This document shows, one piece after another, positions 17,266 to 35,589 of a stretch of DNA of 64,000 bases; position 1 is the stretch's first letter, and each line of letters starts with the position of its first letter. The stretch comes from Acidobacteriota bacterium (GTDB taxonomy: Bacteria > Acidobacteriota > Thermoanaerobaculia > Multivoradales > Multivoraceae), in the NCBI GenBank assembly GCA_036337765.1, contig JAYZDP010000104.1:3764-67763 (forward strand), in the 5' to 3' direction. A program made the translations under genes and the position numbers. A model generated the notes under the pieces. That model did not search any database, was not told the origin of the DNA, and worked only from the letters and a program-made list of their open reading frames with translations.

Positions 17266-18456
17266 TCAGAGAGTGCGGGCCGCGATCAGGGTGCCGGCGA
17301 TGAAGGTGCCGAGCGTGCTCCCGAGGTTGGCGAGTACCACGACCAGCAGGATGCGGGTGACATGGTTGCGCCAGAAGCCTCCGAACGAGGTGATCGCCTC
17401 AGGAAGGTCCTCGAGATCCTCGACCGTGGGGTTCTTGATCCAGGCCTGCACCAGGCCGGCCACCCAGCCGGCTGCGATGAAGGGGTTGAGACTCGTGAGC
17501 GGCGCCGCCACGAACGCCGAAACGACGGTGAGGGGGTGACCCAGGGCGAACGCTACTCCGAGTGCCGAAAGCCCGCCGTTGATCAGAACCCACAGGGCGA
17601 GCGACTCCTGCGACTTGTCGGCACCGCCGGTCACGAAGCCCCAGATCATGAGCCCGATGATGGCCGCCGGGATGGCCCACTTCAGGATGCGGGGCGCCAG
17701 CGAAGGCTTTGGCACCAAGTCGAGCGGTCCGAGGTCGCTGTCGCCCAGGATGTGCTCGGTGATTCCCTTCACGTGACCCGCACCCACTACGGCGACCACT
17801 GTTTCCCCTGGTGCATCGCGAATTTTCTGGGCGAGGTAAACGTCGCGCTCGTCGATCAAAGTCGCCTTGGCTTGCGGTAGCTCGTTGGCGAGCATCTGCA
17901 AGGCGTCGGAGAGCCGCTCTTTCTCTTTGAGCTTCTCGATGTCTTCGGCCGAGATGTCCTCGCCGACGAAGAGTCCGGCCAGGAGCTGCGAGAACACCTT
18001 GAGCTTGGTCCAGAAACCGAGGCTTGCTCCGGTACGCCGCAGCGTGATCTCGATCGCGCGGTCGGCGAGCACCAGCTCGGCGCCGAGCTCGCCGGCCTTC
18101 TCGATGCCGGCGACCATCTCGGCGCCGGGGGTGACACCCAGCTTCTTGGCGATCCGGCGCTGAAACGACGCCATGACTAGAGAGCTCAGCAGCAGCGGCG
18201 CCTTGCCCTCCCTCAGTACCTTGAGAATGTTGAGCTTCCGCCAGCTGTCGGGGTCGATCAGGCCCTGGTGCCGCGAGGCACACAGCTCGACACACACCGT
18301 GTTGGGCGCGACCTCGTCTATCGTCTGCTCGACGTCTATGACGCTTTGCTTGGACACGTGGGCAGTGCCCACCAGCAGGATCCGTCGGCCGTCGAGCTCA
18401 AGCTCGGTGACGGTGTCGGGAAGGCTCGTTTGAGACGGGGGGCTCGATTGGACCAT
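17266..18456 (-). CDS. TraB/PrgY (GumN-like) family protein with C-terminal TM region
   Basis: N-terminus VTELELDGRRILLVGTAHVSKQSVIDVEQTIDEVAPNTVCVELCASR is the TraB-family signature (GTAH...VELD/C). C-terminal hydrophobic helices. Confidence 0.75.
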   Translation of the reverse strand: MVQSSPPSQTSLPDTVTELELDGRRILLVGTAHVSKQSVIDVEQTIDEVAPNTVCVELCASRHQGLIDPDSWRKLNILKVLREGKAPLLLSSLVMASFQRRIAKKLGVTPGAEMVAGIEKAGELGAELVLADRAIEITLRRTGASLGFWTKLKVFSQLLAGLFVGEDISAEDIEKLKEKERLSDALQMLANELPQAKATLIDERDVYLAQKIRDAPGETVVAVVGAGHVKGITEHILGDSDLGPLDLVPKPSLAPRILKWAIPAAIIGLMIWGFVTGGADKSQESLALWVLINGGLSALGVAFALGHPLTVVSAFVAAPLTSLNPFIAAGWVAGLVQAWIKNPTVEDLEDLPEAITSFGGFWRNHVTRILLVVVLANLGSTLGTFIAGTLIAARTL

Positions 18457-21481: not shown

Positions 21482-24277
21482 ATGGGCAAACGTAGATATG
21501 TACCCGCTGTCGGCCCTCGGCTGAAGAAGCTGCTCTTCGTCGTTCTCGGGTTGTTCTCTCTGCTGGCCGTCAACTCCGCCTACATGGTCGGCGTCTCAAT
21601 CCTCGAGAGCGTGACCGGGCAGACCTACCAGAACTGGTTCTACCTGGTGATGTTCCTGCTCCATCTGGCGCTGGGAGCCCTGATCGTGCTGCCGGTGATC
21701 GTCTTCGGCACGATCCACATCCGAAACGCCCACAATCGGCCGAACCGGCGCGCTGTCGTGGCGGGATTCGCGCTCTTTGGCACGGCGCTGGTTCTCTTGG
21801 CGTCGGGGATTGTGCTGACGCGGGTGGAGGGGTTCGTCGTCATCCGCAACCCGGCGACGCGCTCGATCGCCTACTGGGCGCATGTGCTCAGCCCACTGGT
21901 TGCGGGTTGGCTGTTCGTGCTGCACCGTCTTGCCGGGCGCCGCATCCGTTGGCGGGTGGGCGCGCGTTGGGCGGCGGTGGCCGCCGTCTTCGGTGGCGTG
22001 ATGCTGGTCGTCCAGTACCAGGACCCGCGCAGCTGGAACGTTACAGGCCCGGTCAGCGGCGAGCAGTACTTCTTCCCGTCACTCGCGCGCACCGCGACCG
22101 GCGACTTCATCCCGGAATCCGTGCTCGACAACACCGAGTACTGCCGCGAGTGCCATCCCGACGTCTACGACAGTTGGCGGCACTCGGTGCACCACATCAG
22201 CTCCTTCAACAATCCTCCCTACCTCTTCAGCGTGCGCGAGACGCGCCAGGTCGCCTTCGAGCGTGACGGCGACCTGCAGGCGTCGCGCTTCTGCGCCGGC
22301 TGCCACGACCCGGTGGTCTTTTTCTCGGGTCGCTTCGACGATCCCGAGTTCGATGACGAGAACGATCCCACCGGGCAGGCGGGCATCACCTGCACGGCGT
22401 GTCACGCCATCACGAATATCAACAGCCCTCGCGGAAACTCCGACTACACCCTGGACGAGCCGATCCACTATCCCTTCGCCTTCAGCAAGGACCCGACGCT
22501 GGCATGGATCAACCGCCAGCTCGTCAAGGCCAAGCCGGAGCTGCACAAGAAGACCTTCCTCAAGCCACTGCACACGAGCGCCGAGTTCTGCGGCTCGTGC
22601 CACAAGGTGCATCTGCCAGAGGAGCTGAACAAGTACAAGTTCCTGCGCGGCCAGAATCACTACGACTCATTTCTTCTCTCCGGCGTTTCGGGCCACGGCG
22701 CCCAGAGCTTCTACTACCCCGAGACCGCCCAGGCGGGCTGCAACGGCTGCCACATGCCGACCTTCGAGTCGACCGACTTCGGCGCTCGGGTGCTGGATGA
22801 GAGCGGCGCCCTGAAGGTGCACGACCACCTTTTCCCCTCGGCCAACACCGGGCTCGCCCATCTCAAGGAGATGCCGCCGGAGGTGGTCGAGAGGCACCGC
22901 GAGTTCAGCGAGGGCAGCGTGCGGGTCGATCTGTTCGGTCTGCGCCGCGGTGGGGAGATCCAGGGCGAGCTGATCGCGCCCCTGCGCCCGACGGTGCCCA
23001 CGCTCGAGCCCGGTGAGACCTACCTGCTCGAGACCGTGGTGCGAACGTTGACGCTCGGCCACCACCTCACTCAGGGGACCACTGACTCCAACCAGCTGTG
23101 GATGGACGTCGAGGTGGCGGATGACGCGGGCGCGGTCGTCGGACGCAGCGGCGGCATGGACGGCGTGGGCCGCGTCGATCCGTGGTCGCACTTCGTCAAC
23201 GTGTACATGCTCGACCGCGAGGGACGTCGTGTCGACCGGCGCAACGCGCAGGACATCTTCGTGCCGCTGTACAACCACCAGATCCCACCGGGGGCGGCCG
23301 ACGTCGTCCACTTCCGGCTCGAAGTTCCGCCGGACGCAGTCGGCACCCTGGTGGTGCGTGCGGCCCTGCGCTACCGGAAGTTCGACACCACCTACCTGCG
23401 ACACATCTACGGTGAGGACACCACCAACGACCTGCCGATCATGACGCTGGGTAGCGACGAGATCCGCTTTCCGATCGGGCGCGTCGCTGAGACGACGCGG
23501 GTGGCGGCGAGTGAGATCCCCGAGTGGCAGCGCTGGAACGACTACGGCATCGGCCTGCTGCGCAAGGGCGGCAAGAGCAAGGGCGAGCTGCGCCAGGCCG
23601 AGGTGGCCTTCCGCCGCGTCGAGGAGCTCGGGCGCGCCGACGGCCCTCTGAACTTGGCGCGCGTCTACATCGCACAGGGAACAGTTGAGGATCTAGCCAT
23701 CGGTGCGCTCGAGCGTGCGGCGAGCTTCGATCCGCCGGCGCCGCCCTGGCTGATCGCGTGGTTTACCGGGATCGTCAATAAGCAGAACGGCCGGCTCGAC
23801 GAGGCGATCGCGAGCTTCCGCAGTCTCGCCGAGGGTACCGACGATGAGATGCGCCGCCGGGGCTTCGACTTCAGCCTCGACTATCGCGTCCTCAACGAGC
23901 TCGGCCAGACCCTCTTCGAGCGGGCCAAGGTCGAGCGTGGCGCGAACCGGCGAGCTGCGCGTGAGGCTCTCCTGACGCAGTCTCGCACCGCCCTGAAGCG
24001 CGTGCTCGAGCTCGATCCCGAAAACGTTGCCGCTCACTTCAACCTCAACCTCGTCCTTCGCCAGCTCGGCGACGACGAGCTCGCCGCTGCGCACTTCGAC
24101 GCCTACAACCGCTATCGCGCCGACGACAACGCCCACGACCGGGCGATCGCGGTCGCGCGCGCCGCCGATCCGGCCGCGAACCACGCAGCCGAGGCCATCG
24201 TCATCTACGATCTGCACCGTCAGGGCGCGACCGGCCTCGCAGGCGGCGCGCCGGAGCCCAAGGACCCTTCCGGGTGA
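21482..24277 (+). CDS. Membrane-anchored pentahaem c-type cytochrome with C-terminal TPR repeats
   Basis: N-terminal 4-5 TM helices. Five CxxCH motifs (CRECH, CAGCH, CTACH, CGSCH, CNGCH) in the periplasmic middle section. C-terminal TPR-like repeats (...NLARVYIAQG..., ...AAHFNLNLVLRQLGDDELAAAHFDAYNRY...). Confidence 0.8.
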   Translation: MGKRRYVPAVGPRLKKLLFVVLGLFSLLAVNSAYMVGVSILESVTGQTYQNWFYLVMFLLHLALGALIVLPVIVFGTIHIRNAHNRPNRRAVVAGFALFGTALVLLASGIVLTRVEGFVVIRNPATRSIAYWAHVLSPLVAGWLFVLHRLAGRRIRWRVGARWAAVAAVFGGVMLVVQYQDPRSWNVTGPVSGEQYFFPSLARTATGDFIPESVLDNTEYCRECHPDVYDSWRHSVHHISSFNNPPYLFSVRETRQVAFERDGDLQASRFCAGCHDPVVFFSGRFDDPEFDDENDPTGQAGITCTACHAITNINSPRGNSDYTLDEPIHYPFAFSKDPTLAWINRQLVKAKPELHKKTFLKPLHTSAEFCGSCHKVHLPEELNKYKFLRGQNHYDSFLLSGVSGHGAQSFYYPETAQAGCNGCHMPTFESTDFGARVLDESGALKVHDHLFPSANTGLAHLKEMPPEVVERHREFSEGSVRVDLFGLRRGGEIQGELIAPLRPTVPTLEPGETYLLETVVRTLTLGHHLTQGTTDSNQLWMDVEVADDAGAVVGRSGGMDGVGRVDPWSHFVNVYMLDREGRRVDRRNAQDIFVPLYNHQIPPGAADVVHFRLEVPPDAVGTLVVRAALRYRKFDTTYLRHIYGEDTTNDLPIMTLGSDEIRFPIGRVAETTRVAASEIPEWQRWNDYGIGLLRKGGKSKGELRQAEVAFRRVEELGRADGPLNLARVYIAQGTVEDLAIGALERAASFDPPAPPWLIAWFTGIVNKQNGRLDEAIASFRSLAEGTDDEMRRRGFDFSLDYRVLNELGQTLFERAKVERGANRRAAREALLTQSRTALKRVLELDPENVAAHFNLNLVLRQLGDDELAAAHFDAYNRYRADDNAHDRAIAVARAADPAANHAAEAIVIYDLHRQGATGLAGGAPEPKDPSG

Positions 24278-26112
24278 GAGACGAGCGCGAGCAGACACCG
24301 ACAGACGAGGAGGAGTGGGTACCCGAGGACGACGCCGTCATCGGGCGTGCATTTCGCGGCTCGCTCGTGGCTCTGGTGGCGGTCGCGGTCCTGGTCGGCG
24401 CCTTGCTCGGACTGAATCGAGGCTGTAGCGAGGCTCCGGACGACCATGAGATCGAAGCTTTTGCCCCGGTCGCGGTAACGCGGGCTGCAGAAGCGCCGTC
24501 CGTGCCGTTTGCCGACGTGACCGCCGCGTCGGGCGTGGGCTTCGTCCATCACAACGGCGCCACCGGCGACAAGCTCCTGCCCGAAACCATGGGCGGTGGA
24601 GTGGCGATCGCCGACCTCGACGGCGACGGCGATCTGGATCTGTTCTTCGTCGACTCTTCGCCCTGGGAAGGCCGGCCGGGCCGGGCCGGGACTCCCGTTC
24701 TGTACGACAACGACGGCACCGGCAGTTTCCGCGACGTGAGCGCGCAGCGCGGCCTCGACGTCAGTCTCTACGGCACCGGCGTCGCGGCTGGTGACTTCGA
24801 CAACGACGGTGATGTCGACCTGTTCGTCGCGGCGGTGGGGGAGAACCTGCTACTGCGAAACGACGACGGAGCCTTTGTCGACGTGACCGCCGAGGCGGGC
24901 GTGGCTGGCGATCCGGGCGAGTGGTCGTCGTCCAGCGCGTTCGTCGACATCGATCGAGACGGCGATCTGGATCTGTTCGTTGGCAACTACGTGCGCTGGT
25001 CGAAGGAGATCGACCTCGAGCTCGACTACCGACTGACCGGGGTCGGCCGCGCCTACGGGCCGCCTGTGAACTACGGCGGTACCTTCCCATATCTCTACCG
25101 CAACGACGGCGACGGGCGCTTCACCGACGTATCGGCCTCGAGCGGTGTCCAGGTGCGCAACGTCGCCACCGGCGGCCCGGTCGCCAAGTCGCTCGGCGTC
25201 ACACCGGTCGACGTCGATCGCGACGGCTGGCTCGATCTCTTTGTCGCCAACGACACGGTGCGCAACTTCCTTCTACACAACCGCCAGGACGGGACGTTCG
25301 AAGATGTCGGCGACCGCTACGGCATCGCCTATGGCCGCGACGGCGCGGCGACCGGCGCGATGGGCGTCGATTGGGCCGACTTCCGCAACGACGGCGAGCT
25401 GGGGTTTCTGGTGGCGAACTTCGCCAACGAGATGAGCTCACTGTTCGTCACCCAGGGCGATCCGGAGCTCTACGCAGATGAGTCGATCATTGAGGGAATC
25501 GGCGCCCCGAGTAGGCGCATGCTCAGTTTTGGGGTCTTCTTCTTCGACTACGACCTCGACGGACGACTCGATGTGCTGCAGTCCAACGGCCATCTCGAAG
25601 AGGCCATCAACGTCGTCGATCCGAGCCAGGAGTACCACCAACCGCTGCAGCTGTTCTGGAATGCGGGCGACGCGGGCATGGTCGAGGTCGATGCCGACAA
25701 GATGGACGACCTCGCACAGCGCCTTGTCGGTCGGGCGACCGCCTATGGCGACCTCGACGGCGACGGCGACCTCGACGTCGTGGTGTGTCAGACCGCGGGC
25801 CCAGCGATCGTGTTTCGTAACGATCAGGCCGAGGGCCATCATTGGCTGCGGGTGAAGCTCGAGGGCAACGGTCGGTCCTCGAACCGCGACGCGATCGGCG
25901 CGGTCGTCGAGCTGACCGCCGGTGGAACCCTACAGCGCCGCGGCGTGACGCCGTCTCGCTCCTACCAGGCACAGGTCGAGCTACCGCTGACCTTCGGACT
26001 CGGCGACGCTGGCTCAGTCGAGGGACTCGTGGTGATCTGGCCCGACGGCTCGACCTCATCGCACGAGGTGGCTCAGGTCGATCGGGTGGTCGTGATCCGC
26101 CAAGAGAGCTGA
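24274..26112 (+). CDS. CRTAC1-family protein (FG-GAP/VCBS-type repeats plus ASPIC/UnbV C-terminal domain)
   Basis: Repeated Ca-binding-like DxDxDGDxD motifs (IADLDGDGDLDLFFV, FDNDGDVDLFVAA, VDIDRDGDLDLFVGNY, VDVDRDGWLDLFVAND, DYDLDGRLDVLQSNG, YGDLDGDGDLDVVVCQ). UnbV_ASPIC-like C-terminus. GTG start overlaps the preceding stop. Confidence 0.85.
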   Translation: MRDEREQTPTDEEEWVPEDDAVIGRAFRGSLVALVAVAVLVGALLGLNRGCSEAPDDHEIEAFAPVAVTRAAEAPSVPFADVTAASGVGFVHHNGATGDKLLPETMGGGVAIADLDGDGDLDLFFVDSSPWEGRPGRAGTPVLYDNDGTGSFRDVSAQRGLDVSLYGTGVAAGDFDNDGDVDLFVAAVGENLLLRNDDGAFVDVTAEAGVAGDPGEWSSSSAFVDIDRDGDLDLFVGNYVRWSKEIDLELDYRLTGVGRAYGPPVNYGGTFPYLYRNDGDGRFTDVSASSGVQVRNVATGGPVAKSLGVTPVDVDRDGWLDLFVANDTVRNFLLHNRQDGTFEDVGDRYGIAYGRDGAATGAMGVDWADFRNDGELGFLVANFANEMSSLFVTQGDPELYADESIIEGIGAPSRRMLSFGVFFFDYDLDGRLDVLQSNGHLEEAINVVDPSQEYHQPLQLFWNAGDAGMVEVDADKMDDLAQRLVGRATAYGDLDGDGDLDVVVCQTAGPAIVFRNDQAEGHHWLRVKLEGNGRSSNRDAIGAVVELTAGGTLQRRGVTPSRSYQAQVELPLTFGLGDAGSVEGLVVIWPDGSTSSHEVAQVDRVVVIRQES

Positions 26113-26166: not shown

Positions 26167-26901
26167 TTGGAGAAGGAAGCCGCCATCGAAACGGAGCCGA
26201 AGGTGCCTGGAGACCAGCCAGGCCCGCAGCAAGAGGACCGCGAGGGTCGCGATCTGGTTGCTGAGCTGCGCCTTGCCGAGGAGCGCATCCGTCTACTCGA
26301 GCGCGACAAGCTCATCGTGCTCAAGGAGGCCGCCGATGCGCGCCTCCCCTTGGAAGAGCAAGCGAAAGCGGCGCAGGCCGCGTTCGCGGTTGCGCAGGCG
26401 CGCATCGGTGAGCTCGAGGGGGAACGTGACGAGATCCGTGCGTTGCTCGAGAAGTTCCTGGCCGAGAACTGGAGCGATCTGAAGGAGCACACCCCGGCCG
26501 CCGGTGTGCCGATCGGATTGACCGACTTTCTCAGCCCGGCCGAATCCGGCCAGCGCGCGGCTGTGGGTGGCGACGAGGAGTCAGAGGTCGCCCCGCCCCC
26601 AGTGCACCGCTCGGCGAGCGCGCCGCCTCCTAAGCCGACGCAGTCCCCGCGCCGGGCTCCGATCGAGAACAAGGAGGATCTGGGCCAGGTCTTGGCGGCC
26701 GGCGCTTCGATCGAGACCACCGAGAACTTCGCCCGGTTCCAGCCGGTGAAGACCTCGCACATCAAGGTCAGCGACTGGCTGCAGCGCGCTCACGACTATG
26801 AAGCTCTTCGGAATCTCGCCCGCGACGAGGTAGCCGAGGAAGAGCTCGTCTCCGTTCTGTTTCTCTTCATGCAGAAGGCATTCATTCGGGTCGAGCGCTG
26901 A
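26167..26901 (+). CDS. Hypothetical coiled-coil protein (no recognisable domain). Non-ATG (TTG) start.
   Basis: Heptad-rich N-terminal half (LVAELRLAEERIRLLERDKLIVLKEAADARLPLEEQAKAAQAAFAVAQARIGELEGERDEIRALLEKFL). Proline-rich linker. Conserved-looking C-terminus. Confidence 0.45.
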   Translation: MEKEAAIETEPKVPGDQPGPQQEDREGRDLVAELRLAEERIRLLERDKLIVLKEAADARLPLEEQAKAAQAAFAVAQARIGELEGERDEIRALLEKFLAENWSDLKEHTPAAGVPIGLTDFLSPAESGQRAAVGGDEESEVAPPPVHRSASAPPPKPTQSPRRAPIENKEDLGQVLAAGASIETTENFARFQPVKTSHIKVSDWLQRAHDYEALRNLARDEVAEEELVSVLFLFMQKAFIRVER

Positions 26902-26914
26902 GCCGGCTGACCGC

Positions 26915-29488
26915 GTGATGCGCTTGCTCTCCTTCTCGTTGACGATCTTCGCCTTGGCGACACCGCTCGGCGGTGGCTCTCCCCTCGAACCACCTTCCAC
27001 GGGTGGCATCGTCGCCCTACACCGCGCCCTGGCGCGACTCGATGTGCACAAGCGGCTGCTGATCATCGGCGCACACCCCGACGATGAGGACACGAGCCTG
27101 CTCGCCCTGGTGAGTCGAGGGATGGGCGGTGAGGCAGCCTATCTCTCGCTGTCGCGCGGCGAGGGCGGCCAGAACCTCATCGGCACCGAGCTCGGCCGTG
27201 ACCTGGGTCTCGTCCGCAGCCAGGAGCTGCTTTCGGCGCGCGGCGTTGACGGTGGCCATCAGTTCTTCACCCGCGCCTTCGACTTCGGCTACACCCGCTC
27301 GCTCGACGAGACCGTCGGCCGGTGGCCTGAGGAAGTGCTGCTCGAAGACGCGGTGCGGGTGGTGCGGCGGTTCAAGCCGCAGATCATTGTGTCGGTGTTT
27401 CCCAACAGTGCGCGTGCGGGCCACGGCCAGCATCAGGCGGCCGGACTGACCGCGGAGCGAGTGTTCGAGGCGGCCGGCGATCCCGCGCAGTTCCCCGAGA
27501 TGGCCGCCGACGGCTTGGCGCCTTGGCAGCCCAGATCGTTTTACAGATCCGCCTTCTTCCGCCCTGTGCCAGGCAACCTGGTGCTCGAGACCGGAGGCAC
27601 CGACCCCGGCTCGGGTAAGACGTACTTCCAACTGGCGATGGCCTCTCGCAGCATGCATCGCTCCCAGGACATGGGGGTGTTGCAGGACACCGGGCCGCGC
27701 AGCACCCGCGTGGTACGCGAGTCGAGCGACAGCGACGATCCCGATCTCTTCGCCGGTGTGGACACCCACCTTGCGGCGATCGCCGACCTGATCGAGGACC
27801 GCGAGGACCGAGATGCGTCGCGGGCGCGGCTGCAGTCGGCGGCGGACCGCGTAGCGGCGTTGCGCCGGGAGGTCGATCCTGGGAATCTCGGGGTCGCGAC
27901 GGCGGCGCTCGGCGCACTCGTCTCGGATCTGAGAGCCGCGCACGCCCAAGCCGGCGCCGCCACCGTGGCTGGTCAGCTGCTGCGGGAGAAGGTGGAGATC
28001 GCGGAGGAGGCATGGACGATCGCGGCGGGTCTCGTTCTCGACGCGACCACCACCGACGATCGACTGGTCGCCGGTCGCCGCACGGAGATTCGCGTCGTCG
28101 TCTACAACAGCGGCAGCGCGGCGGTCGAGGTGGCCCCCGCACTCGACGTGCCGGCAGGCTGGTCCGATCCCGAAGGCCTGGATCCGCAGCAGGTGCCGGC
28201 CGGAGAGTCGAAGACCTGGACGGTCGAACTGTCGGTTCCGGCATCGGCCGAGCCCACCGTTCCGTACTTTCTGGCCGCGCCGCGCCAGGGCGACGTCTAC
28301 GATTGGTCGGGGGTGGCTGTCGACATCAAGGCAGAGCCCTTCGGGCCGCCGCCGCTGAGTGCGCGCTTTCGCCTGACCGCTGGCGGCTTGGAGCTGGAGC
28401 GGAGTCGCGAGGTCGTCCAGCGCTTTCGCGATCAGGCGGTCGGCGAGCGTCGGCGGCCGCTTCGCGTCGTGCCCGTGGTCGAGGTGGCGGTCGATCCCGC
28501 CCGCCTGGTCTGGCCCGTCGGGCAGGCCTCTCGCAGGACCGTTCGGGTAAGCCTCACCAAGAACGTCGGCGAGGCGCTGGATGGCACCATCGAGGTCAGC
28601 AGCCCGCTCGGCTGGCCCAGTGTCGCCGCCGTCGACTTCTCGCTGGAAGCGACTCGCGAGCGACGTACCTACGAGCTCGTCATCGAGCGCCCCGCCGACG
28701 ACAGCCAGGGCGGCGGCACCTTCGCCTTTGCCGCGGCCCTGTCCAGTGGGGTCGAGAGCCGCGCGGCCTATCCGTTGGTCGACTATCCTCACATCCGCGC
28801 CGTGCCGTGCCCTCGGCCCGCCCTCGCTGACATTCAGCTGCTCGATCTTGAGCTCCCCGGTGCCAAGCGCATCGCCTACATCCGGGGCGCTTCCGATCGG
28901 GTACCCGAGAGCCTGCTCGAGGTGGGTCTGCCGATCCAGCTCGTGACCTCGGACCAGCTCCTCGACATGGACGAGACGGAGCTGGCGAGCTTTGACTCCG
29001 TCGTCATCGGCTCGCGTGCCTACGAGACCGACTCCCGTCTCGCCGAAGCCAATCCCAGGCTACGCGAGTACGTCGCCCGAGGTGGGACCCTGCTGGTCCA
29101 GTACCAGCAGTACGCGTTCAGTCGCGGGGGCATGGCACTGCTACCGCTCAGTATCGCGCGGCCGCACGACCGGATCACCGACGAGACGGCGGCGATGAAC
29201 GTCATTGCTCCCGACCACGGTGCCTTCACCTCTCCGAATGCCATCGGCAAGGCCGACTGGCAGGGCTGGGTACAGGAGCGTGGCCTGTATTTCGCCAACG
29301 AGTGGGACGACAGCTACAAGAGCCTGCTGCGCATTTCCGACCCCGGCCGCGACCCGCAGGAGGGGGGTCTCCTGGTCGCACCGATCGGTGAGGGGACCTA
29401 CATCTACACTGGCCTGGCCTTCTTCCGCCAGCTCCCGGCGGGAGTCCCCGGCGCGTTCCGACTGTTCGCCAACCTGCTCAACCTCTAG
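26915..29488 (+). CDS. Large PIG-L/LmbE-family N-acetylglucosaminyl deacetylase with long C-terminal extension (Ig-like region and a GATase1/ThuA-like domain)
   Basis: LmbE/PIG-L motif LLIIGAHPDDEDTSLLALVS near the N-terminus, after a signal peptide MMRLLSFSLTIFALATPLGG. 857 aa. C-terminal segment ...GGTLLVQYQQYAF...LLVAPIGEGTYIYTGLAFFRQL resembles ThuA/DUF4159-type GATase1-like folds. Confidence 0.75.
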   Translation: MMRLLSFSLTIFALATPLGGGSPLEPPSTGGIVALHRALARLDVHKRLLIIGAHPDDEDTSLLALVSRGMGGEAAYLSLSRGEGGQNLIGTELGRDLGLVRSQELLSARGVDGGHQFFTRAFDFGYTRSLDETVGRWPEEVLLEDAVRVVRRFKPQIIVSVFPNSARAGHGQHQAAGLTAERVFEAAGDPAQFPEMAADGLAPWQPRSFYRSAFFRPVPGNLVLETGGTDPGSGKTYFQLAMASRSMHRSQDMGVLQDTGPRSTRVVRESSDSDDPDLFAGVDTHLAAIADLIEDREDRDASRARLQSAADRVAALRREVDPGNLGVATAALGALVSDLRAAHAQAGAATVAGQLLREKVEIAEEAWTIAAGLVLDATTTDDRLVAGRRTEIRVVVYNSGSAAVEVAPALDVPAGWSDPEGLDPQQVPAGESKTWTVELSVPASAEPTVPYFLAAPRQGDVYDWSGVAVDIKAEPFGPPPLSARFRLTAGGLELERSREVVQRFRDQAVGERRRPLRVVPVVEVAVDPARLVWPVGQASRRTVRVSLTKNVGEALDGTIEVSSPLGWPSVAAVDFSLEATRERRTYELVIERPADDSQGGGTFAFAAALSSGVESRAAYPLVDYPHIRAVPCPRPALADIQLLDLELPGAKRIAYIRGASDRVPESLLEVGLPIQLVTSDQLLDMDETELASFDSVVIGSRAYETDSRLAEANPRLREYVARGGTLLVQYQQYAFSRGGMALLPLSIARPHDRITDETAAMNVIAPDHGAFTSPNAIGKADWQGWVQERGLYFANEWDDSYKSLLRISDPGRDPQEGGLLVAPIGEGTYIYTGLAFFRQLPAGVPGAFRLFANLLNL

Positions 29489-29700: not shown

Positions 29701-32079
29701 TCATCCCCGGCGTCGTAGATGGACACCACGCTTGAGCGACAGCTCTCGCCCGGGCCTCCAGCCGCGCCGTCGGCCGTCGCGCAGGGCGCGGACTGCGGTC
29801 GAAAGGACCTGGGCGGCGCCTTCGAGAGCCGAGCCGCCAGGGGACTCTAAATAGCGGCGCAAGTGGCCCCAGCGGGATCGCGGGTCGGGGCGTGCTTCGA
29901 GCTCGGCGAGGACACTGACGCCCTCCCACTCGGGAAGCCGACGCCAGTGTCGGTAGAGGCGGACGGCGACACTGCGGTCGAGGGCCTCGTCGCGGCGCTG
30001 CGGGACGGCGGTCAACCAGGCAGGCTCGGCCGCCAGCCAGCCGAGAGGGCCGGCGAGCGCTCGGGTGACGAGCGCGAGCTCCTCGGCGACATCGCAGCGA
30101 TGGGCGCAGTCGGCCAGGCGGTCGGCGTCGATGAGGTCATCGCGCTCGAGGGCGAGGGCGAGGTCGAGGACGGCGCGCATCGTGACCGCGAGGTCGTGGT
30201 GCAGGAGGTGCCCGAGGGCGAGGATGAGCGCATGCTCGGGCGCCGGGGCTTCGAAGCGCACGCCGCCCGCCTGGCAGGAGGTGGCGTGGTCCCAGGTCTG
30301 CTCGAGCAACCATGGGCGCTCCGACAGCTCGTCCCAGAGATCGAAGTGGAGCTCGATCGAACGACCGGTCTCCGGGTCGTGGCGCTCGACGTGGTGGGGT
30401 GCCGTGCGGCCTCGCTCGGTGTAGCCGAGGGCCTCTAGCTCGCGTTCGAGCGCGCGGAGCTCCGCCGGGCGGCAGAGGAGGTCGAGGTCGACCATCGGAC
30501 GCAGACCGGGGGCACCGTAGAAGCGGGCGATGTCGGCCGGGCCCTTGAAAGCCAGTGGGCGCAACCCGAGTTCGCGGCAGCGCTCGAGGAGGCGGCCGAG
30601 GTCGTCGAGCCGGCGGCCGTTGTGGAGTGCCGTCAGGCAGGAGGCGCCGAACCAGTCGTCGCGCACCGCGGCGTCAACTTGGAAGGGCAGCCGGCCGTCG
30701 TGGGCGAGATGGCTGAGGACGGGCTGCAGCCGGTGCGCCGCCGCGAGGATGACCAGGCGGTCGAGGTCGTCGACCGGTCGGGGCGGTGGCTGGCCTCCGG
30801 TCGCCTTCGAGACGAACTCTCTGCAGGCCCGCTCGAGGAGGGCGATGCACGAGTCGACCGGCGTGGTTTCGAAACGGTCGGCGGCGAGGGGCGGCCGCGA
30901 CCCCGCGGCCTCGACCGCGAACCCCATGCCCTCGGCGAGGCGTCGGCAGACGCGGTCGCTAGCGTAGTCGGACGCCAGCTGGCCGCGCTTGGCGGCGGCG
31001 ATCCGGCGGGCCTCTCCGCGGTGCTCGAAGACCCAGCGCAGCAGCTCGCTCGCGTGGGCTCGGTCGGCTCGGGCCCAGTGCGGGGGACCCGAGGCGGTGC
31101 GGTACTCCTCGTCGGGAGCCTCGACCAGGTCGTAGCGCACCGCGAGCGGCCAGTCATCGCCGAGGTAGTCCTTCTGGCCTCCCCAACCGGTAAGGATCGC
31201 GGGATTGCCGAAGAGCAGCGCCTCGAAGGGGCAGATGCCCCAGCCCTCGCTGCGCGGCAGCCCGAAGAAGCAGTCGCCCCGTGTGTGCAGGCCGTCGATG
31301 GTGCGCGGCGAGACCTCCTCGGCTACGAGATGCACGCGCCCGCGGCCCGGGTACTCCGCCAGGATCTTCGCCACCTGCCACCAGGTCATCTGCTCGTGCG
31401 GCACGGCGCGGCCCACGCGGTCGCCCTCGAGGGCACCGGGCACGATCGAATCGGTCTTGACCACCAGCACTACACGCTCGTCGGCCCGGAAGGTCTCGAG
31501 GTAGGCCCGCAGGGTGTCGCTCATGGACTTGCGCGGGGTCCAGGTGGCGATGGTGTAGAAGACGAAGTCGTCGTTCTCGATCGCCCGCAGCGCGTCGGGC
31601 ACCGGAGCGCGCCGGACCTCCCGCGCGATGTGCGGCACGATCTCGATGGGTCGGGTGATGCCCTCCGACGCCAGCACCGAACGGTTGAACTCACTCGGCA
31701 CGAAGAGGCGCTCGAACCCATTCAGAACGTCGCACCAGCCGTCCGGAAGGCGATCCATCTCCCAGGCGACGTAGGCGTAGGGCGTCAGGTCGAGCGCCTT
31801 GCGCAACCAGTGGGCGTGGGCCCTCGGCGGAGGCACGTCGATCAGCAGGGTGTCGACGTCGAGAGGGCGGTGGTGGAGCCGCAGGACGCGTTCATCGATC
31901 GCCGGGTGCAGGCCCGGTAGCCGGTCGAGCGAGCTGGGCGTGTCGAGCCCCTTCGCGATCGGCCACCACGTCAGGGGGACCCCAAGCCGGTCGAGCCCTG
32001 CCGCGTAGAGCGTGGCGGCGTCGCCGTAGCCGGAGCCCGGCAGCTGGGTGACTAGCTGCAGTCCGCGGGGCGGCGTCAT
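29701..32079 (-). CDS. Fusion protein: GT4-family (GT-B) glycosyltransferase fused to a PF14907-type uncharacterised nucleotidyltransferase domain. The two halves are ordered N-terminal glycosyltransferase, C-terminal nucleotidyltransferase. Start set at ATG 32079 (MTPPRGLQLV), which overlaps the upstream gene stop as ATGA.
   Basis: Glycos_transf_1-like region FVPSEFNRSVL ... GDCFFGLPRSEGWGICPFEALLFGNPAILTGWGGQKDYL. C-terminal half has the NTP_transf_5 pattern: DRLVILAAAHRLQPVL ... LRPLAFKGPADIARFYGAPGLRPMVDLDLLCRPAELRALERELEALGY ... IELHFDLWD. Confidence 0.75.
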   Translation of the reverse strand: MTPPRGLQLVTQLPGSGYGDAATLYAAGLDRLGVPLTWWPIAKGLDTPSSLDRLPGLHPAIDERVLRLHHRPLDVDTLLIDVPPPRAHAHWLRKALDLTPYAYVAWEMDRLPDGWCDVLNGFERLFVPSEFNRSVLASEGITRPIEIVPHIAREVRRAPVPDALRAIENDDFVFYTIATWTPRKSMSDTLRAYLETFRADERVVLVVKTDSIVPGALEGDRVGRAVPHEQMTWWQVAKILAEYPGRGRVHLVAEEVSPRTIDGLHTRGDCFFGLPRSEGWGICPFEALLFGNPAILTGWGGQKDYLGDDWPLAVRYDLVEAPDEEYRTASGPPHWARADRAHASELLRWVFEHRGEARRIAAAKRGQLASDYASDRVCRRLAEGMGFAVEAAGSRPPLAADRFETTPVDSCIALLERACREFVSKATGGQPPPRPVDDLDRLVILAAAHRLQPVLSHLAHDGRLPFQVDAAVRDDWFGASCLTALHNGRRLDDLGRLLERCRELGLRPLAFKGPADIARFYGAPGLRPMVDLDLLCRPAELRALERELEALGYTERGRTAPHHVERHDPETGRSIELHFDLWDELSERPWLLEQTWDHATSCQAGGVRFEAPAPEHALILALGHLLHHDLAVTMRAVLDLALALERDDLIDADRLADCAHRCDVAEELALVTRALAGPLGWLAAEPAWLTAVPQRRDEALDRSVAVRLYRHWRRLPEWEGVSVLAELEARPDPRSRWGHLRRYLESPGGSALEGAAQVLSTAVRALRDGRRRGWRPGRELSLKRGVHLRRRG

Positions 32080-32948
32080 CGAGGCCCGGCCGCGAGCTCG
32101 TGCGGCGTCGGGACGAGGGGCTGCAGCAGGCGGGCGAGCCCACTCGACGAGCGGTGGATGCGCGTGACGGTGAGCTCCTCGGCGTGGTGGGTCGAGAAGT
32201 CGACTCGATCCTCTTCCCACCACATGTGCTGCCACAGGTGGAGCGAGGAGGCCTCGCCGGTGTCCAGCGGCTCTTCGGCGAAGAGCCGTGCGATCCCCTC
32301 CGGCGTCGAGCGCACCGGGAAGAACGTCGCCTCGGGCTCGACGTGGATCTCGTCGGGGAGCTCTTCGCTGAGCTGCTGCGCGAGGAAGCCCGAGTGGTTG
32401 CTCCAGCTGCCGTCGAGGGCACCCTCCATACGTTCACGCCAGGTGCGGGCGAAGAGCGAGCCGGGCTCGGCCATCAGCAGGGCGTTGCAGAGGGACGGCT
32501 TGACGTTGCCGGTGTGTTCGTCGACGACCGGCGGCTCTCGGCCGATGACGAAGCTCTCTTCCCACAGGTGCTCCGGTGGCGGCCGCAGGAAGATCGTGTC
32601 GATGTCGGCGTAGAGACCGCCGTGCTCGATCAGGGCGTCGAGTCGCACGAAGTCGGCCTGGTGGGCATAGCGGTAGGCTTCGGGGACGAGCCGGTCATCG
32701 TAGCGCGCGCGATCGATCTCGACCGGCCGCTCGACACGAACCAACTCCAGGTGCGGCCGGATCTCCTCCCACAGAGCGCCGAACGGCAGCGAATGGTAGT
32801 GCAGCACGATCTTCTCCGGCCGGACGACCTGGCGACACGACTCGATGGCCGCGTAGTGGAGCGGGTGAAAGGTGAGCCGCTGAGGGCGGAGTCCGAAGAC
32901 GAAGTGCGCGATGCGCGGGATCCCGGCCATGGGAGAGGGAAGTGACAT
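32076..32948 (-). CDS. GT32-like glycosyltransferase (Och1/DXD sugar-binding region family)
   Basis: N-terminal IPRIAHFVFG (compare IPKxIHQIW) and ADFVRLDALIEHGGLYADIDTIF (DXD-containing motif of Gly_transf_sug). Start ATG 32948 (alternative ATG 32930). Translationally coupled to the downstream GT-NTase gene. Confidence 0.65.
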   Translation of the reverse strand: MSLPSPMAGIPRIAHFVFGLRPQRLTFHPLHYAAIESCRQVVRPEKIVLHYHSLPFGALWEEIRPHLELVRVERPVEIDRARYDDRLVPEAYRYAHQADFVRLDALIEHGGLYADIDTIFLRPPPEHLWEESFVIGREPPVVDEHTGNVKPSLCNALLMAEPGSLFARTWRERMEGALDGSWSNHSGFLAQQLSEELPDEIHVEPEATFFPVRSTPEGIARLFAEEPLDTGEASSLHLWQHMWWEEDRVDFSTHHAEELTVTRIHRSSSGLARLLQPLVPTPHELAAGPR

Positions 32949-32974
32949 TAGCACGCGACCGCGGGCGGAGCCTG

Positions 32975-34234: not shown

Positions 34235-34249
34235 TACCGTGCGCGGATT

Positions 34250-34531
34250 GTGAGCGAGTCACCGAAGTACGAGCGGGCGCCGGGCCTGGAGTCGCACGAG
34301 GCCGATGATGGACTGGTGATCTTCGATCCCGCCGTCGACAAGATCCACCACATCAACTCCTCGGCCGGAGTGTTCTTCGAGCTCTGCGACGGCACCCGTG
34401 ACGCCGAGCGCATCGCCGAGGTCGCGACCGGCGTCTTCGGCCCGGACGAATTGCCGGAGGGCGCCGTCGCACAGGCGCTCGAGATGCTGGTGCGCGAGGG
34501 CATCGTACGGCAGGTCGACGGGGACTCTTGA
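34250..34531 (+). CDS. PqqD-family protein (RiPP recognition element, peptide chaperone)
   Basis: 93 aa. DGLVIFDPAVDKIHHINSSAGVFFELCDGTRDAERIAEVATGVFG...AVAQALEMLVREGIV matches the PqqD consensus along its whole length. GTG start 16 nt after the GT4 stop. Confidence 0.8.
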   Translation: MSESPKYERAPGLESHEADDGLVIFDPAVDKIHHINSSAGVFFELCDGTRDAERIAEVATGVFGPDELPEGAVAQALEMLVREGIVRQVDGDS

Positions 34532-35385: not shown

Positions 35386-35415
35386 GATGCGCTCGTACAT
35401 CACGGGAGACCACCC

Positions 35416-35580: not shown

Positions 35581-35589
35581 AGCCCGGCG

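What the first reader, a model, noticed from the sequence alone, without database searches (positions are those of the whole stretch)
21482..26112. Membrane-anchored pentahaem cytochrome c-TPR protein translationally coupled to a CRTAC1-family (FG-GAP/ASPIC) protein
The two genes overlap (GTGA) and so are probably co-translated. A haem-rich periplasmic domain fused to TPR protein-interaction repeats, next to a calcium-binding beta-propeller-like CRTAC1 protein, suggests an extracellular redox/adhesion module. TPR+CRTAC1 pairs are a recurring but functionally unexplained arrangement. The five CxxCH sites with N-terminal TM anchors make this a candidate extracellular electron-transfer or metal-oxide-interaction component.
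Basis: partly seen in the sequence, partly recalled or inferred. Interest (0 to 1): 0.5.

Follow-up and report, generated by a model that had tools for sequence, protein, structure and literature searches.

The report
Membrane b/c cytochrome paired with CRTAC1 propeller
Two always-adjacent genes encode a membrane cytochrome, with five c-haem sites and probably two previously unnoticed b-haem sites, and a calcium-binding propeller protein of the enigmatic CRTAC1 family; the pair is conserved in at least six bacterial phyla, looks like an undescribed electron-transfer module, and is probably not an extracellular metal-reducing device.

Summary
ORF1 (21482-24277, 931 aa) has five CxxCH motifs that use all ten of its cysteines, and a C-terminal TPR domain. 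ORF2 (24274-26112, 612 aa) is a CRTAC1-type FG-GAP propeller with an UnbV_ASPIC domain. The two overlap by GTGA.

The haem motifs are invariant in orthologues down to about 30% identity. An ORF2 orthologue lies directly downstream in 56 of 64 informative loci from six phyla, and nothing else nearby is conserved.

New findings:
- The "TM anchors" form a conserved five-helix domain with four histidines in depth-matched pairs (H61/H134, H79/H148). The second pair is usually lost together. I infer a di-haem b module with no Pfam family.
- TPR::CRTAC1 fusions occur in both domain orders.

Best reading (about 0.5): a two-subunit inner-membrane module that wires the quinone pool through b and c haems to a TPR-docked propeller acting on an unknown periplasmic substrate.

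The extracellular electron-transfer idea is poorly supported: both proteins are inner-membrane anchored and no outer-membrane conduit or second cytochrome is nearby. I rate it a new variant of a known kind, interest moderate to high.

The parts
21482..24277 (+). ORF1, 931 aa. It is a fusion of a five-helix membrane domain, a pentahaem c domain, an Ig-like beta-sandwich and TPR repeats.
   Evidence: The ORF is listed. An identical protein is named 'multiheme c-type cytochrome' (Acidobacteriota MAG). The AF2 model has pLDDT 92.1 and pTM 0.89.
21482..22021 (+). N-terminal membrane domain, aa 1-180. Five TM helices at aa 12-45, 52-83, 89-113, 124-151 and 157-179. Putative di-haem cytochrome b module.
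   Evidence: Helices are from the model. K+R counts are 6/4/6 in the predicted cytoplasmic segments and 0/3 in the periplasmic loops. No Pfam family matches and no PDB sequence relative was found. Some members give sub-threshold hits to Ni_hydr_CYTB (4 of 22) and DUF4405 (3 of 22, best E 1.2e-3).
21662..21664 (+). H61 codon (TM2, periplasmic side). Proposed ligand of the outer haem b, together with H134.
   Evidence: Invariant in A3 and conserved at 90% or more in A1. Retained in nearly all of 104 representatives.
21881..21883 (+). H134 codon (TM4, periplasmic side). Proposed partner of H61.
   Evidence: Invariant in A3. It lies 10 residues from the periplasmic end of helix 124-151, and H61 lies 9 residues from the periplasmic end of helix 52-83.
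21716..21718 (+). H79 codon (TM2, cytoplasmic side). Proposed ligand of the inner haem b, together with H148.
   Evidence: Conserved at 90% or more. It is lost together with H148 in about 12 of 104 representatives, against 4 single losses.
21923..21925 (+). H148 codon (TM4, cytoplasmic side). Proposed partner of H79.
   Evidence: Same evidence as for H79. H148 lies 3 residues and H79 4 residues from the cytoplasmic helix ends.
22049..22909 (+). Periplasmic five-haem alpha-helical cap, aa 190-476.
22142..22156 (+). CxxCH 1 (CRECH, aa 221-225).
   Evidence: Cys and His are invariant.
22292..22306 (+). CxxCH 2 (CAGCH, aa 271-275).
   Evidence: The whole motif is invariant in 77 orthologues.
22391..22405 (+). 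CxxCH 3 (CTACH, aa 304-308).
22589..22603 (+). CxxCH 4 (CGSCH, aa 370-374).
22739..22753 (+). CxxCH 5 (CNGCH, aa 420-424), followed by the near-invariant M425.
22190..23062 (+). Span holding the candidate distal haem ligands. H237, H355, H449 and H527 are invariant and H364 is conserved at 90% or more. H527 lies in the Ig-like domain.
   Evidence: Alignment A1. Codons were checked. The assignment of these histidines as ligands is an inference.
22919..23476 (+). Ig-like beta-sandwich 'stem', aa 480-665.
   Evidence: Strands are from the model. No Pfam family matches. The domain belongs to the cap-plus-Ig architecture shared with 5ze8 and MccSep.
23522..24196 (+). C-terminal TPR solenoid, aa 681-905. 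Proposed dock for ORF2.
24260..24277 (+). Gene junction. AAGGA ribosome-binding-like sequence at 24260-24264, and GTGA at 24274-24277 where the ORF2 start overlaps the ORF1 stop.
24274..26112 (+). ORF2, 612 aa. Membrane-anchored CRTAC1-family protein.
   Evidence: The AF2 model has pLDDT 84.6. The best solved match is murine CRTAC1, 9etn_A, with Foldseek E 3e-30 and TM 0.73.
24319..24420 (+). ORF2 conserved cytoplasmic motif VPEDDAVIGRAFRGS (aa 16-30), followed by a variable TM helix (aa 30-49).
   Evidence: D19, D20, I23, G24 and S30 are invariant in A2. The motif is absent from CRTAC1 paralogues in the same loci. The model has a helix at aa 17-49.
24508..25821 (+). FG-GAP beta-propeller with DxDxDG calcium-type loops, aa 79-516.
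25012..25065 (+). Clade-specific, nearly invariant loop DLELDYRLTGVGRAYGPP (aa 247-264). The model predicts it with low confidence, and it is a candidate interface or active-site loop.
   Evidence: Invariant residues are. pLDDT is below 50. The loop is an insertion missing from 11 of 18 paralogues.
25840..26100 (+). C-terminal UnbV_ASPIC beta-sandwich, aa 523-609.
   Evidence: Pfam match at aa 540-605. Aligned to the murine CRTAC1 C-terminal domain. Strands are from the model.

Best explanation
The two genes encode the two subunits of one inner-membrane redox module.

ORF1 is a cytochrome b-c fusion. Its five transmembrane helices carry two bis-histidine haem-b sites stacked across the membrane. 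H61/H134 sit near the periplasm and H79/H148 near the cytoplasm. These sites connect a quinone or cytoplasmic-side site to a chain of five c haems. The c haems sit in a periplasmic 'cap' that rests on an Ig-like stem. The C-terminal TPR solenoid holds ORF2.

ORF2 is a calcium-binding CRTAC1-type beta-propeller, itself tethered to the membrane by an N-terminal helix. The propeller binds, and may transform, a still unknown periplasmic substrate. Electrons pass between that substrate and the quinone pool through the seven haems.

I lean towards the donor direction: periplasmic substrate oxidation feeding the quinone pool, following the logic of formate dehydrogenase-N or hydrogenase-1, or of the membrane PQQ alcohol dehydrogenases. 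My reason is that a membrane-spanning two-haem b path is what such redox-loop enzymes use, whereas simple quinol dehydrogenases of the NapC/NrfH/CymA type do not need one.

Shown: the motifs, their conservation, the predicted folds, the topology and the gene linkage. Inferred: haem b binding, the ORF1-ORF2 contact through the TPR domain, quinone coupling, the direction of electron flow and the substrate.
For: (1) Haem c. All five CxxCH are invariant from 75% down to 29% identity. There are exactly five further conserved histidines: H237, H355, H449 and H527 invariant, and H364 at 90% or more.

(2) Haem b.
- Four histidines lie in TM2 and TM4. Both helices run from periplasm to cytoplasm, and the histidines sit at matching depths: 9 and 10 residues from the outer helix ends, and 4 and 3 residues from the inner ends.
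- Among 104 cluster representatives, 83 keep all four. About 12 have lost H79 and H148 together while keeping H61 and H134. Only 4 show a single loss. This is the pattern expected if each pair ligates one cofactor.
- The commonest weak Pfam hit of family members is Ni_hydr_CYTB (tied with two unrelated families), and DUF4405 follows. I recall both as di-haem b families.

(3) Topology places the haem c domain, the TPR domain and the propeller in the periplasm.

(5) Partnership.
- An ORF2 orthologue (50-68% identity) lies directly downstream in 56 of 64 informative loci from Acidobacteriota, Latescibacterota, Planctomycetota, Verrucomicrobiota, Gammaproteobacteria and Chloroflexota.
- No other neighbour is conserved.
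- The linkage persists in relatives at 31-34% identity, with the gene order sometimes reversed.
- TPR::CRTAC1 fusions occur in both orders.
- The TPR domain is as conserved as the catalytic-looking parts.
- The cytochrome-linked CRTAC1 clade has its own N-terminal motif and loop, which paralogues lack.

(6) Independent precedent. A CRTAC1-family gene sits between genes for haem-containing hydrazine-synthase-like subunits in other bacteria (PMC12758564).
Against: - No haem b family is detected at significance. Pfam hits are sub-threshold.
- hhalign against E. coli FdnI and HyaC gives probability below 1%.
- No solved structure matched the membrane domain in the listed hits.
- I could not read the model coordinates, so His-His distances were not measured.
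- No redox cofactor or metal site is evident in ORF2.
- The closest solved relative of ORF2, mammalian CRTAC1, has to my knowledge no known redox role.
- About 10% of loci lack an adjacent CRTAC1 gene.
- One distant subfamily sits next to a response-regulator/PPDK_N gene instead.
- Physical contact between the two proteins was not modelled.
- The direction of electron flow and the substrate are guesses.
Confidence: 0.5

Rival explanations
1. ORF1 is a general inner-membrane quinol dehydrogenase, working like CymA, ImcH or CbcL. It hands electrons to soluble periplasmic carriers and, through them, to extracellular acceptors such as metal oxides. The CRTAC1 protein would be only an accessory, stabilising or adhesive partner.
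For: - The protein is a membrane-embedded multihaem cytochrome with a likely b-type module.
- NCBIfam gives weak similarity to NrfB, DmsE-family and GSU2203-type cytochromes.
- Geobacter CbcL is, from my own knowledge, a comparable b-c fusion.
Against: - No outer-membrane porin or cytochrome, and no second cytochrome, is conserved nearby or present in the window.
- The strict pairing with one specific CRTAC1 orthogroup, which has clade-specific features, and the highly conserved TPR domain argue for a dedicated partner rather than promiscuous carriers.
- The hosts include many lineages I do not know as metal reducers (own knowledge).
Confidence: 0.17
2. The five-haem cap is itself the catalytic centre, a multihaem cytochrome enzyme like NrfA or MccSep. 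It would act on a small nitrogen, sulfur or oxygen species. The TPR domain and the CRTAC1 protein would serve only as scaffold or substrate-channelling parts.
For: - The cap-plus-Ig-stem fold matches T. tepidum c552, which the MccSep authors compare with the polysulfide reductase MccSep. In MccSep a residue from the Ig-like domain reaches the active-site haem.
- In ORF1 the invariant H527 also comes from the Ig-like domain.
- Only four non-motif histidines are strictly invariant for five haems.
Against: - A fifth histidine (H364) is conserved at 90% or more, so all five haems can be bis-His. That is the signature of electron-transfer haems.
- ORF1 has no cysteine outside the CxxCH motifs. The His/Cys-ligated haem and the Sec/Cys site that define MccSep are therefore absent.
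- No CxxCK or other variant motif is present.
Confidence: 0.13
3. The module moves reducing power outward for repair or protection of the envelope, in the manner of MsrQ/MsrP or other di-haem b transmembrane reductases. Cytoplasmic or quinol electrons would cross the membrane and be delivered to the propeller, which reduces an oxidised periplasmic target.
For: - Two haem sites stacked across the membrane are what transmembrane reductases use (own knowledge).
- ORF2 has a conserved cytoplasmic motif.
- An AhpC/Redoxin gene lies next to the cytochrome gene in one locus. This is a single observation.
Against: - This shares all the untested steps of the best explanation.
- No reductase cofactor is seen in ORF2.
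- No conserved cytoplasmic partner gene was found.
- This reading differs from the best explanation only in direction, so it is a sub-variant rather than a true alternative.
Confidence: 0.12
4. The adjacency has no functional meaning, or the proteins have a non-redox structural or adhesive role in which the haems are vestigial.
For: TPR repeats and FG-GAP propellers are classical protein- and ligand-binding scaffolds. The structural neighbours of ORF2 include lectins and integrins.
Against: - The pair is kept in 88% of informative loci across six phyla, while every other neighbour varies.
- It also persists in distant relatives.
- All ten haem-attachment cysteines and nine histidines are under near-absolute conservation.
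Confidence: 0.04

Closest known systems
Low-potential penta-haem cytochrome c552 of Thermochromatium tepidum (PDB 5ZE8), and the Geobacter sulfurreducens MccSep/ExtKL polysulfide reductase that its authors compare with it
   Different: As far as I know, both are soluble periplasmic proteins. ORF1 adds an N-terminal five-helix membrane domain and a C-terminal TPR domain. ORF1 lacks the His/Cys-ligated haem 2 and the Sec/Cys residue of MccSep, because it has no non-motif cysteine. Sequence identity to 5ZE8 is only 19%.
Membrane di-haem cytochrome b subunits and fusions: FdnI/HyaC (Pfam Ni_hydr_CYTB), DUF4405 proteins and Geobacter CbcL (a b-c fusion; own knowledge)
   Same: A helical bundle carries two pairs of histidines on two helices, placing one haem near each membrane face. 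It is coupled to a periplasmic redox partner. Several family members give weak Ni_hydr_CYTB and DUF4405 hits.
   Different: No significant sequence or profile similarity was found. The domain has five helices, with His spacings of 18 and 14 residues. The domain order and haem number differ from CbcL (own knowledge, not tested). The partner is a CRTAC1 propeller, not a hydrogenase or formate dehydrogenase.
CRTAC1 / ASPIC / UnbV family (mammalian cartilage acidic protein 1, PDB 9ETN; enediyne 'E4' proteins)
   Same: FG-GAP calcium-loop beta-propeller plus a C-terminal UnbV_ASPIC beta-sandwich. The best structural match is 9etn_A at E 3e-30 and TM 0.73. Some database entries for close homologues carry the label 'enediyne biosynthesis protein E4'.
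   Different: ORF2 has an N-terminal membrane anchor with a conserved cytoplasmic motif, and a clade-specific invariant loop at aa 247-264. Pfam finds no EGF-like domain. Identity to the mouse protein is 22%. No member of this family has an established biochemical function (own knowledge).
Periplasmic propeller enzymes wired to cytochromes c: quinohaemoprotein PQQ alcohol dehydrogenases, cytochrome cd1 and hydrazine synthase (own knowledge, plus PMC12758564)
   Same: The design principle is a beta-propeller that binds the substrate next to a c-haem chain leading to the respiratory chain. A CRTAC1 gene is embedded in hydrazine-synthase-like haem gene clusters.
   Different: No PQQ, d1-haem or other cofactor signature was found in ORF2. 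No homology to those propellers was shown. This is an analogy only.

Membership tests
Multihaem c-type cytochrome | Two or more CxxCH haem-attachment motifs, conserved among homologues | tested here: met
   Five CxxCH motifs are present. Their Cys and His are invariant in 77 orthologues and in a 29-75% identity alignment.
Multihaem c-type cytochrome | Haem domain located outside the cytoplasmic membrane, so that the maturation machinery can attach haem | tested here: met
   Five predicted TM helices have a positive-inside pattern (K+R 6/4/6 inside, 0/3 outside). This places residues beyond aa 180 in the periplasm. This is a prediction only.
Multihaem c-type cytochrome | Covalently bound haem actually present | not testable with these tools
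   This needs haem staining or mass spectrometry of the protein.
Five-haem cap + Ig-like stem cytochromes (5ZE8 / MccSep fold) | Alpha-helical five-haem domain followed by an Ig-like beta-sandwich | tested here: met
MccSep-type polysulfide reductase | His/Cys-ligated active-site haem 2, and a Sec or Cys residue from the Ig-like domain | tested here: not met
   ORF1 has no cysteine outside the five CxxCH motifs. The defining features are described.
Di-haem cytochrome b (Ni_hydr_CYTB / DUF4405 type) | Four conserved histidines on transmembrane helices, forming two bis-His sites at opposite membrane faces | tested here: met
   H61 and H134 are invariant, and H79 and H148 are conserved at 90% or more. 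The pairs sit at matching depths on two co-directional helices, and the inner pair is lost together.
Di-haem cytochrome b (Ni_hydr_CYTB / DUF4405 type) | Significant sequence or profile match to the family | tested here: not met
   No Pfam hit for the window protein. Other members give only sub-threshold hits: 4 of 22 to Ni_hydr_CYTB (best E 0.066) and 3 of 22 to DUF4405 (best E 1.2e-3). hhalign against FdnI and HyaC gives probability below 1%.
Di-haem cytochrome b (Ni_hydr_CYTB / DUF4405 type) | Non-covalent haem b bound; a quinone site | not testable with these tools
   This needs spectroscopy of the purified protein. Model coordinates could not be read to measure His-His distances.
TPR repeat proteins | Tandem helix-turn-helix repeats forming a solenoid | tested here: met
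CRTAC1 / ASPIC-UnbV family (ORF2) | FG-GAP/VCBS calcium-loop beta-propeller followed by a UnbV_ASPIC domain | tested here: met
   Pfam FG-GAP_3 x6 at E 1e-37 and UnbV_ASPIC at E 3e-16. Foldseek E 3e-30 and TM 0.73 to murine CRTAC1. The source annotation is 'CRTAC1 family protein'.
CRTAC1 / ASPIC-UnbV family (ORF2) | Calcium actually bound; a biochemical activity | not testable with these tools
   DxDxDG-type loops are invariant. To my knowledge no activity is known for any family member.
Extracellular electron-transfer conduit (porin-cytochrome, Mtr/Pcc type) | Outer-membrane beta-barrel and periplasmic or extracellular multihaem cytochromes encoded together | tested here: not met
   Only ORF1 and ORF2 are conserved across 80 loci. 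No other ORF in the 64-kb window has a CxxCH. The immediate neighbours are a transpeptidase, a PLP enzyme and a PIG-L protein.

The most novel reading that the evidence does not exclude
The pair may be the core of a previously unrecognised, very widespread respiratory-type enzyme. In this reading the CRTAC1-family beta-propeller is the substrate-converting subunit, and a new type of b2c5 cytochrome links it electrogenically to the quinone pool. This would give the first biochemical role to the CRTAC1/ASPIC/UnbV family. That family includes the human osteoarthritis marker CRTAC1 and the unexplained 'E4' protein of enediyne biosynthesis. It would also define a new di-haem b membrane domain family.
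Probability: 0.25. Interest if true: 0.8.

Novelty: new variant of a known kind. Interest (0 to 1): 0.55.

Why it matters
The family is large.
- More than 6,000 sequence clusters at 90% identity were among the scored candidates.
- There are 812 clusters at 50% identity with E of 1e-30 or better.
- At least 522 hits were found among species-representative genomes.

It is also unusually conserved, at 58-70% identity over 930 residues between phyla. It occurs in abundant but poorly understood soil, sediment and marine lineages: Thermoanaerobaculia, Vicinamibacteria, Latescibacterota, Planctomycetota, Verrucomicrobiota and uncultured Gammaproteobacteria.

Current annotation says only 'multihaem cytochrome' or 'TPR protein' next to 'CRTAC1 family protein'. 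Three points make the function directly testable:
- The membrane part carries a likely di-haem b module.
- The cytochrome is dedicated to one CRTAC1 orthogroup.
- TPR and CRTAC1 modules are also found fused.

If the function is confirmed, metabolic models of these organisms would gain a new quinone-linked periplasmic redox reaction. The CRTAC1/UnbV family, so far without a mechanism, would gain a functional context.

Tried and rejected
- Pfam on the isolated membrane domain (aa 1-208) and the middle domain (aa 447-691) gave no family.
- A PDB sequence search with a profile of the membrane domain gave nothing.
- hhalign of the membrane-domain profile against E. coli FdnI and HyaC was not significant. 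Homology to Ni_hydr_CYTB is therefore not claimed.
- Model coordinates are not exposed to scripts, so haem-ligand distances could not be measured.
- BLASTP of the ORF1 TPR domain against the separate or fused TPR partners of CRTAC1 paralogues gave no specific similarity. Common descent of these TPR modules is not claimed.
- I looked for cytochrome::CRTAC1 fusions among the longest family members. There were none, only longer TPR arrays.
- I tested whether a HEAT-repeat protein replaces CRTAC1 in loci that lack it. It is not a recurrent alternative.
- The mirror-tree correlation of ORF1 and ORF2 pairwise identities was only moderate (Pearson 0.57) and is not used as evidence.
- The promoter and terminator scan found nothing above background. 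There is no Rfam element upstream.
- Literature searches for the pairing returned only PMC12758564. A search for UnbV with enediyne found nothing in the library.
- A cluster look-up gave no organism names for members on long contigs.

Full report
**1. What is there**

The window carries two co-directional ORFs on the + strand: 21482..24277 (931 aa) and 24274..26112 (612 aa).

- They share the tetranucleotide GTGA. GTG is at 24274-24276 and TGA at 24275-24277. An AAGGA lies 9 nt upstream of the GTG.
- 24274 is the first possible start in its frame, and it precedes a conserved N-terminal motif. The overlap is therefore forced.
- Identical proteins exist in the public collection, on a 94-kb contig of an Acidobacteriota MAG. 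They are named 'multiheme c-type cytochrome' and 'CRTAC1 family protein'.

ORF1 has five CxxCH motifs, at aa 221, 271, 304, 370 and 420.

- All ten cysteines of ORF1 lie in these motifs.
- No other ORF of 100 aa or more in the 64-kb window has even one CxxCH.
- Pfam sees Cytochrome_C554 at aa 221-308 and weak TPR matches.
- A family profile hits solved TPR proteins at E 8e-77.

ORF2 has six FG-GAP_3 repeats and a UnbV_ASPIC domain.

**2. Conservation and linkage**

ORF1 belongs to a very large family.

- 6,278 clusters at 90% identity scored E of 1e-5 or better among the scored candidates. The best 120 are 66-76% identical over the full length.
- In a library of 50%-identity representatives there are 3,904 hits at E of 1e-3 or better and 812 at 1e-30 or better. 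The full-length architecture is kept down to about 30% identity.
- The best 80 loci come from Acidobacteriota (Thermoanaerobaculia, Vicinamibacteraceae), Latescibacterota, Planctomycetota, Verrucomicrobiota, Gammaproteobacteria and Chloroflexota, at 57-70% identity.

The five CxxCH motifs are invariant in 77 orthologues and in a 74-sequence alignment spanning 29-75% identity.

- An ORF2 orthologue (50-68% identity) starts within 600 nt downstream in 56 of the 64 loci that have at least 1.5 kb of downstream sequence. One more lies 2.3 kb away, and seven have none.
- All-against-all clustering of the ORFs in the 80 loci shows that nothing else is conserved. The next real family occurs in only 8 loci.
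- In the window, the flanking genes are a transpeptidase, a PLP-dependent enzyme, an unknown 244-aa ORF and a PIG-L protein.
- The linkage extends to distant relatives. A 34%-identical homologue is followed by a CRTAC1 gene with a 4-nt overlap. A 32% homologue is preceded by one with a 4-nt overlap and followed by another FG-GAP gene. A 31% homologue sits two genes downstream of two CRTAC1 genes.
- One distant subfamily lacks CRTAC1 and instead faces a response-regulator/PPDK_N gene.
- The 4-nt overlap itself is not conserved in the core group, where spacings run from -3 to 559 nt.

**3. Anatomy of ORF1**

The AlphaFold2 model is confident, with pLDDT 92.1 and pTM 0.89. It shows four parts.

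(a) Five transmembrane helices, at aa 12-45, 52-83, 89-113, 124-151 and 157-179.

- K+R counts are 6, 4 and 6 in the N-terminus and in the second and fourth connecting segments. They are 0 and 3 in the other two.
- The N-terminus is therefore cytoplasmic, and everything after aa 180 is periplasmic.

(b) An alpha-helical region at aa 194-476 that holds the five CxxCH motifs.

(c) A beta-sandwich at aa 480-665.

(d) A TPR solenoid at aa 681-903.

- From my own knowledge of the 2019 paper on 5ze8 (Chen et al., cited), that protein has a five-haem domain followed by an Ig-like domain.
- The MccSep preprint shows it as a comparison structure for Geobacter MccSep/ExtKL, a five-haem cap on an Ig-like stem, where a selenocysteine from the Ig-like domain reaches a His/Cys-ligated haem 2 (bioRxiv 10.1101/2025.11.18.688581).
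- ORF1 cannot work that way, because it has no cysteine outside the CxxCH motifs.
- Besides the motif histidines, H237, H355, H449 and H527 are invariant and H364 is conserved at 90% or more. That is one candidate distal ligand per haem, so a purely electron-transferring bis-His chain is the simplest reading. This is an inference.

**4. The membrane domain is more than an anchor**

- H61 and H134 are invariant, and H79 and H148 are conserved at 90% or more.
- TM2 and TM4 both run from periplasm to cytoplasm.
- H61 and H134 lie 9 and 10 residues from the periplasmic helix ends. H79 and H148 lie 4 and 3 residues from the cytoplasmic ends.
- This is the geometry of two bis-His haem sites stacked across a membrane.
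- Among 104 representatives with this region, 83 have all four histidines. About 12 keep H61 and H134 but have lost both H79 and H148. Only 4 have lost just one of the latter. Correlated loss is what one expects if H79 and H148 bind one cofactor and H61 and H134 another.

No Pfam family matches the window protein here. When 22 diverse members were scanned individually, the commonest weak hit was Ni_hydr_CYTB ('prokaryotic cytochrome b561'), in 4 members. Two unrelated families were hit equally often. DUF4405 followed in 3 members, with best E 1.2e-3.

Profile comparison with E. coli FdnI and HyaC was not significant. No solved relative was found.

I therefore call this a putative new di-haem b domain. 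It works like the FdnI/HyaC kind, but membership of that family is not shown.

**5. ORF2**

The model (pLDDT 84.6) has three parts: an N-terminal helix at aa 17-49, a beta-propeller at aa 79-516 and a beta-sandwich at aa 523-609.

- Its best solved match by far is murine CRTAC1 (9etn_A), with Foldseek E 3e-30, TM 0.73 and 22% identity.
- The next matches are an aldos-2-ulose dehydratase, fungal GlcNAc-binding lectins and integrin alpha propellers.
- Sequence similarity to CRTAC1 is confined to the FG-GAP repeats and the C-terminal domain.
- The Asp-rich calcium-type loops are invariant.

Compared with 18 CRTAC1 paralogues from the same loci, the cytochrome-linked clade has private features:

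- a conserved cytoplasmic motif, VPEDDAVIGRAFRxS, before a variable TM helix;
- an inserted, nearly invariant loop at aa 247-264, which the model cannot place (pLDDT below 50);
- clade-specific residues W131, K305, M387, R414, H440 and W462.

These are candidate contact or active-site elements.

**6. TPR and CRTAC1 belong together**

- In a Latescibacterota locus the cytochrome gene is preceded by CRTAC1, a small TPR protein, CRTAC1, and then a 1,068-aa TPR::FG-GAP::UnbV fusion.
- In a gammaproteobacterial locus the gene upstream of the cytochrome is a 997-aa FG-GAP::UnbV::TPR fusion.
- Fusions in both orders are a Rosetta-stone argument that TPR modules and CRTAC1 propellers interact.
- The TPR domain of ORF1 is as conserved between phyla (62% mean pairwise identity) as the haem domain (69%), the Ig domain (63%) and the membrane domain (58%). 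That is unusual for TPR repeats and fits a fixed partner.
- No specific sequence similarity links the ORF1 TPR domain to those other TPR modules.

**7. Mechanism**

The best-supported picture is a two-subunit inner-membrane module. A b2c5 cytochrome connects a quinone or cytoplasmic-side site, through two b haems and five c haems, to a periplasmic CRTAC1 propeller held by the TPR domain.

A membrane-spanning pair of b haems is characteristic of redox-loop enzymes such as formate dehydrogenase-N and hydrogenase-1, and of transmembrane reductases such as MsrQ (own knowledge). Plain quinol dehydrogenases of the NapC/NrfH/CymA type manage with a single helix. I therefore lean towards oxidation of a periplasmic substrate at the propeller, with electrons delivered to quinone at the inner face. 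The opposite direction is not excluded.

The substrate is unknown.

- The carbohydrate-related structural neighbours of the propeller hint at glycans or other organic substrates, but weakly.
- So does one distant locus with an arylsulfotransferase, a sulfotransferase and a hybrid two-component regulator.
- An independent paper reports a CRTAC1-family gene between genes for haem-containing hydrazine-synthase-like subunits in non-anammox bacteria (PMC12758564). CRTAC1 proteins therefore keep company with haem proteins elsewhere too.

**8. Rivals**

No porin-cytochrome or second cytochrome is conserved nearby or present in the window.
- A catalytic multihaem enzyme is made unlikely by the full set of five candidate distal histidines and the absence of the MccSep features.
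- A non-redox scaffold is made unlikely by the absolute conservation of the haem ligands.
- A reductive, envelope-repair direction remains a live sub-variant.

**9. Novelty**

The open-access literature available to me contains no description of this pair or of the membrane domain. Databases label the proteins only generically.

Cytochrome b-c fusions and propeller-plus-cytochrome enzymes are known kinds. New here are the particular b-type domain, the cap/Ig/TPR combination and above all the dedicated CRTAC1 partner. I rate it a new variant of a known kind, with moderate-to-high interest. It is widespread, strongly conserved and directly testable, and it would give a first functional context to the CRTAC1/UnbV family.

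The main weaknesses are these:

- haem b binding, the protein-protein contact and quinone coupling are all inferred;
- I could not measure distances in the model;
- I could not run a complex prediction.

Noticed in passing
L002:401-7895 (Latescibacterota MAG), upstream of the cytochrome gene: An array of CRTAC1 (591 aa), a small TPR protein (247 aa), CRTAC1 (592 aa) and a 1,068-aa TPR::FG-GAP::UnbV fusion lies directly before the cytochrome-CRTAC1 pair. Several other loci (L010, L011, L044, L060) also carry extra CRTAC1 paralogues upstream.
   Followed up: partly
L050:4530-7523 (Candidatus Rariloculaceae, Gammaproteobacteria): A 997-aa protein has the opposite fusion order, FG-GAP/UnbV at the N-terminus and TPR at the C-terminus. 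It lies immediately upstream of the cytochrome gene.
   Followed up: partly
L088:1-10586 (contig carrying a 31%-identical homologue, P0243): The distant cytochrome-TPR gene sits between an arylsulfotransferase (PF05935) and a sulfotransferase gene. Two CRTAC1 genes lie upstream, and a hybrid two-component regulator of the polysaccharide-utilisation type lies downstream. This may be a clue to substrate class, but it is a single locus.
   Followed up: no
L084:1-1971 and L086:2-2845 (homologues P0172 and P0179, about 33% identity): This distant subfamily is divergently paired with a Response_reg + PPDK_N protein. In L086 it has no CRTAC1 gene within 4 kb downstream, so it may have a different partner or regulation.
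   Followed up: partly
window 25012-25065 (ORF2 aa 247-264): The loop DLELDYRLTGVGRAYGPP is almost invariant in the cytochrome-linked clade, yet it is the least confident part of the model (pLDDT below 50). It is missing from most paralogues.
   Followed up: partly
L003, L031, L062, L066, L077, L083: About one locus in ten has the cytochrome gene without an adjacent CRTAC1 gene. In L083 a HEAT-repeat protein starts right after the stop codon, and a homologue of it lies 3.8 kb downstream in L062. It is not a recurrent substitute. Whether these genomes carry the CRTAC1 partner elsewhere was not checked.
   Followed up: partly
window 14612-16954 (-) and 17266-18456 (-): A family B DNA polymerase (780 aa, with DNA_pol_B and exonuclease domains) and a TraB/PrgY/GumN-family protein lie a few kb upstream of the pair. 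Homologues of the TraB-like protein appear upstream in 8 loci.
   Followed up: no
window 26167-26901 (+) and 26915-29488 (+): A 244-aa ORF with no Pfam family and an 857-aa PIG-L deacetylase-like protein with an NPCBM_assoc domain lie directly downstream. Neither is conserved next to the pair in other genomes.
   Followed up: partly
window 30001-36000: G+C rises to 0.70-0.72, against 0.65-0.68 in most of the window, and GC skew is positive.
   Followed up: no
Literature: PMC12758564: In non-anammox bacteria, a CRTAC1-family FG-GAP gene sits between, or next to, genes for homologues of the haem-containing hydrazine synthase alpha and beta-gamma subunits. This is a second, independent association of CRTAC1 proteins with haem proteins.
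   Followed up: partly
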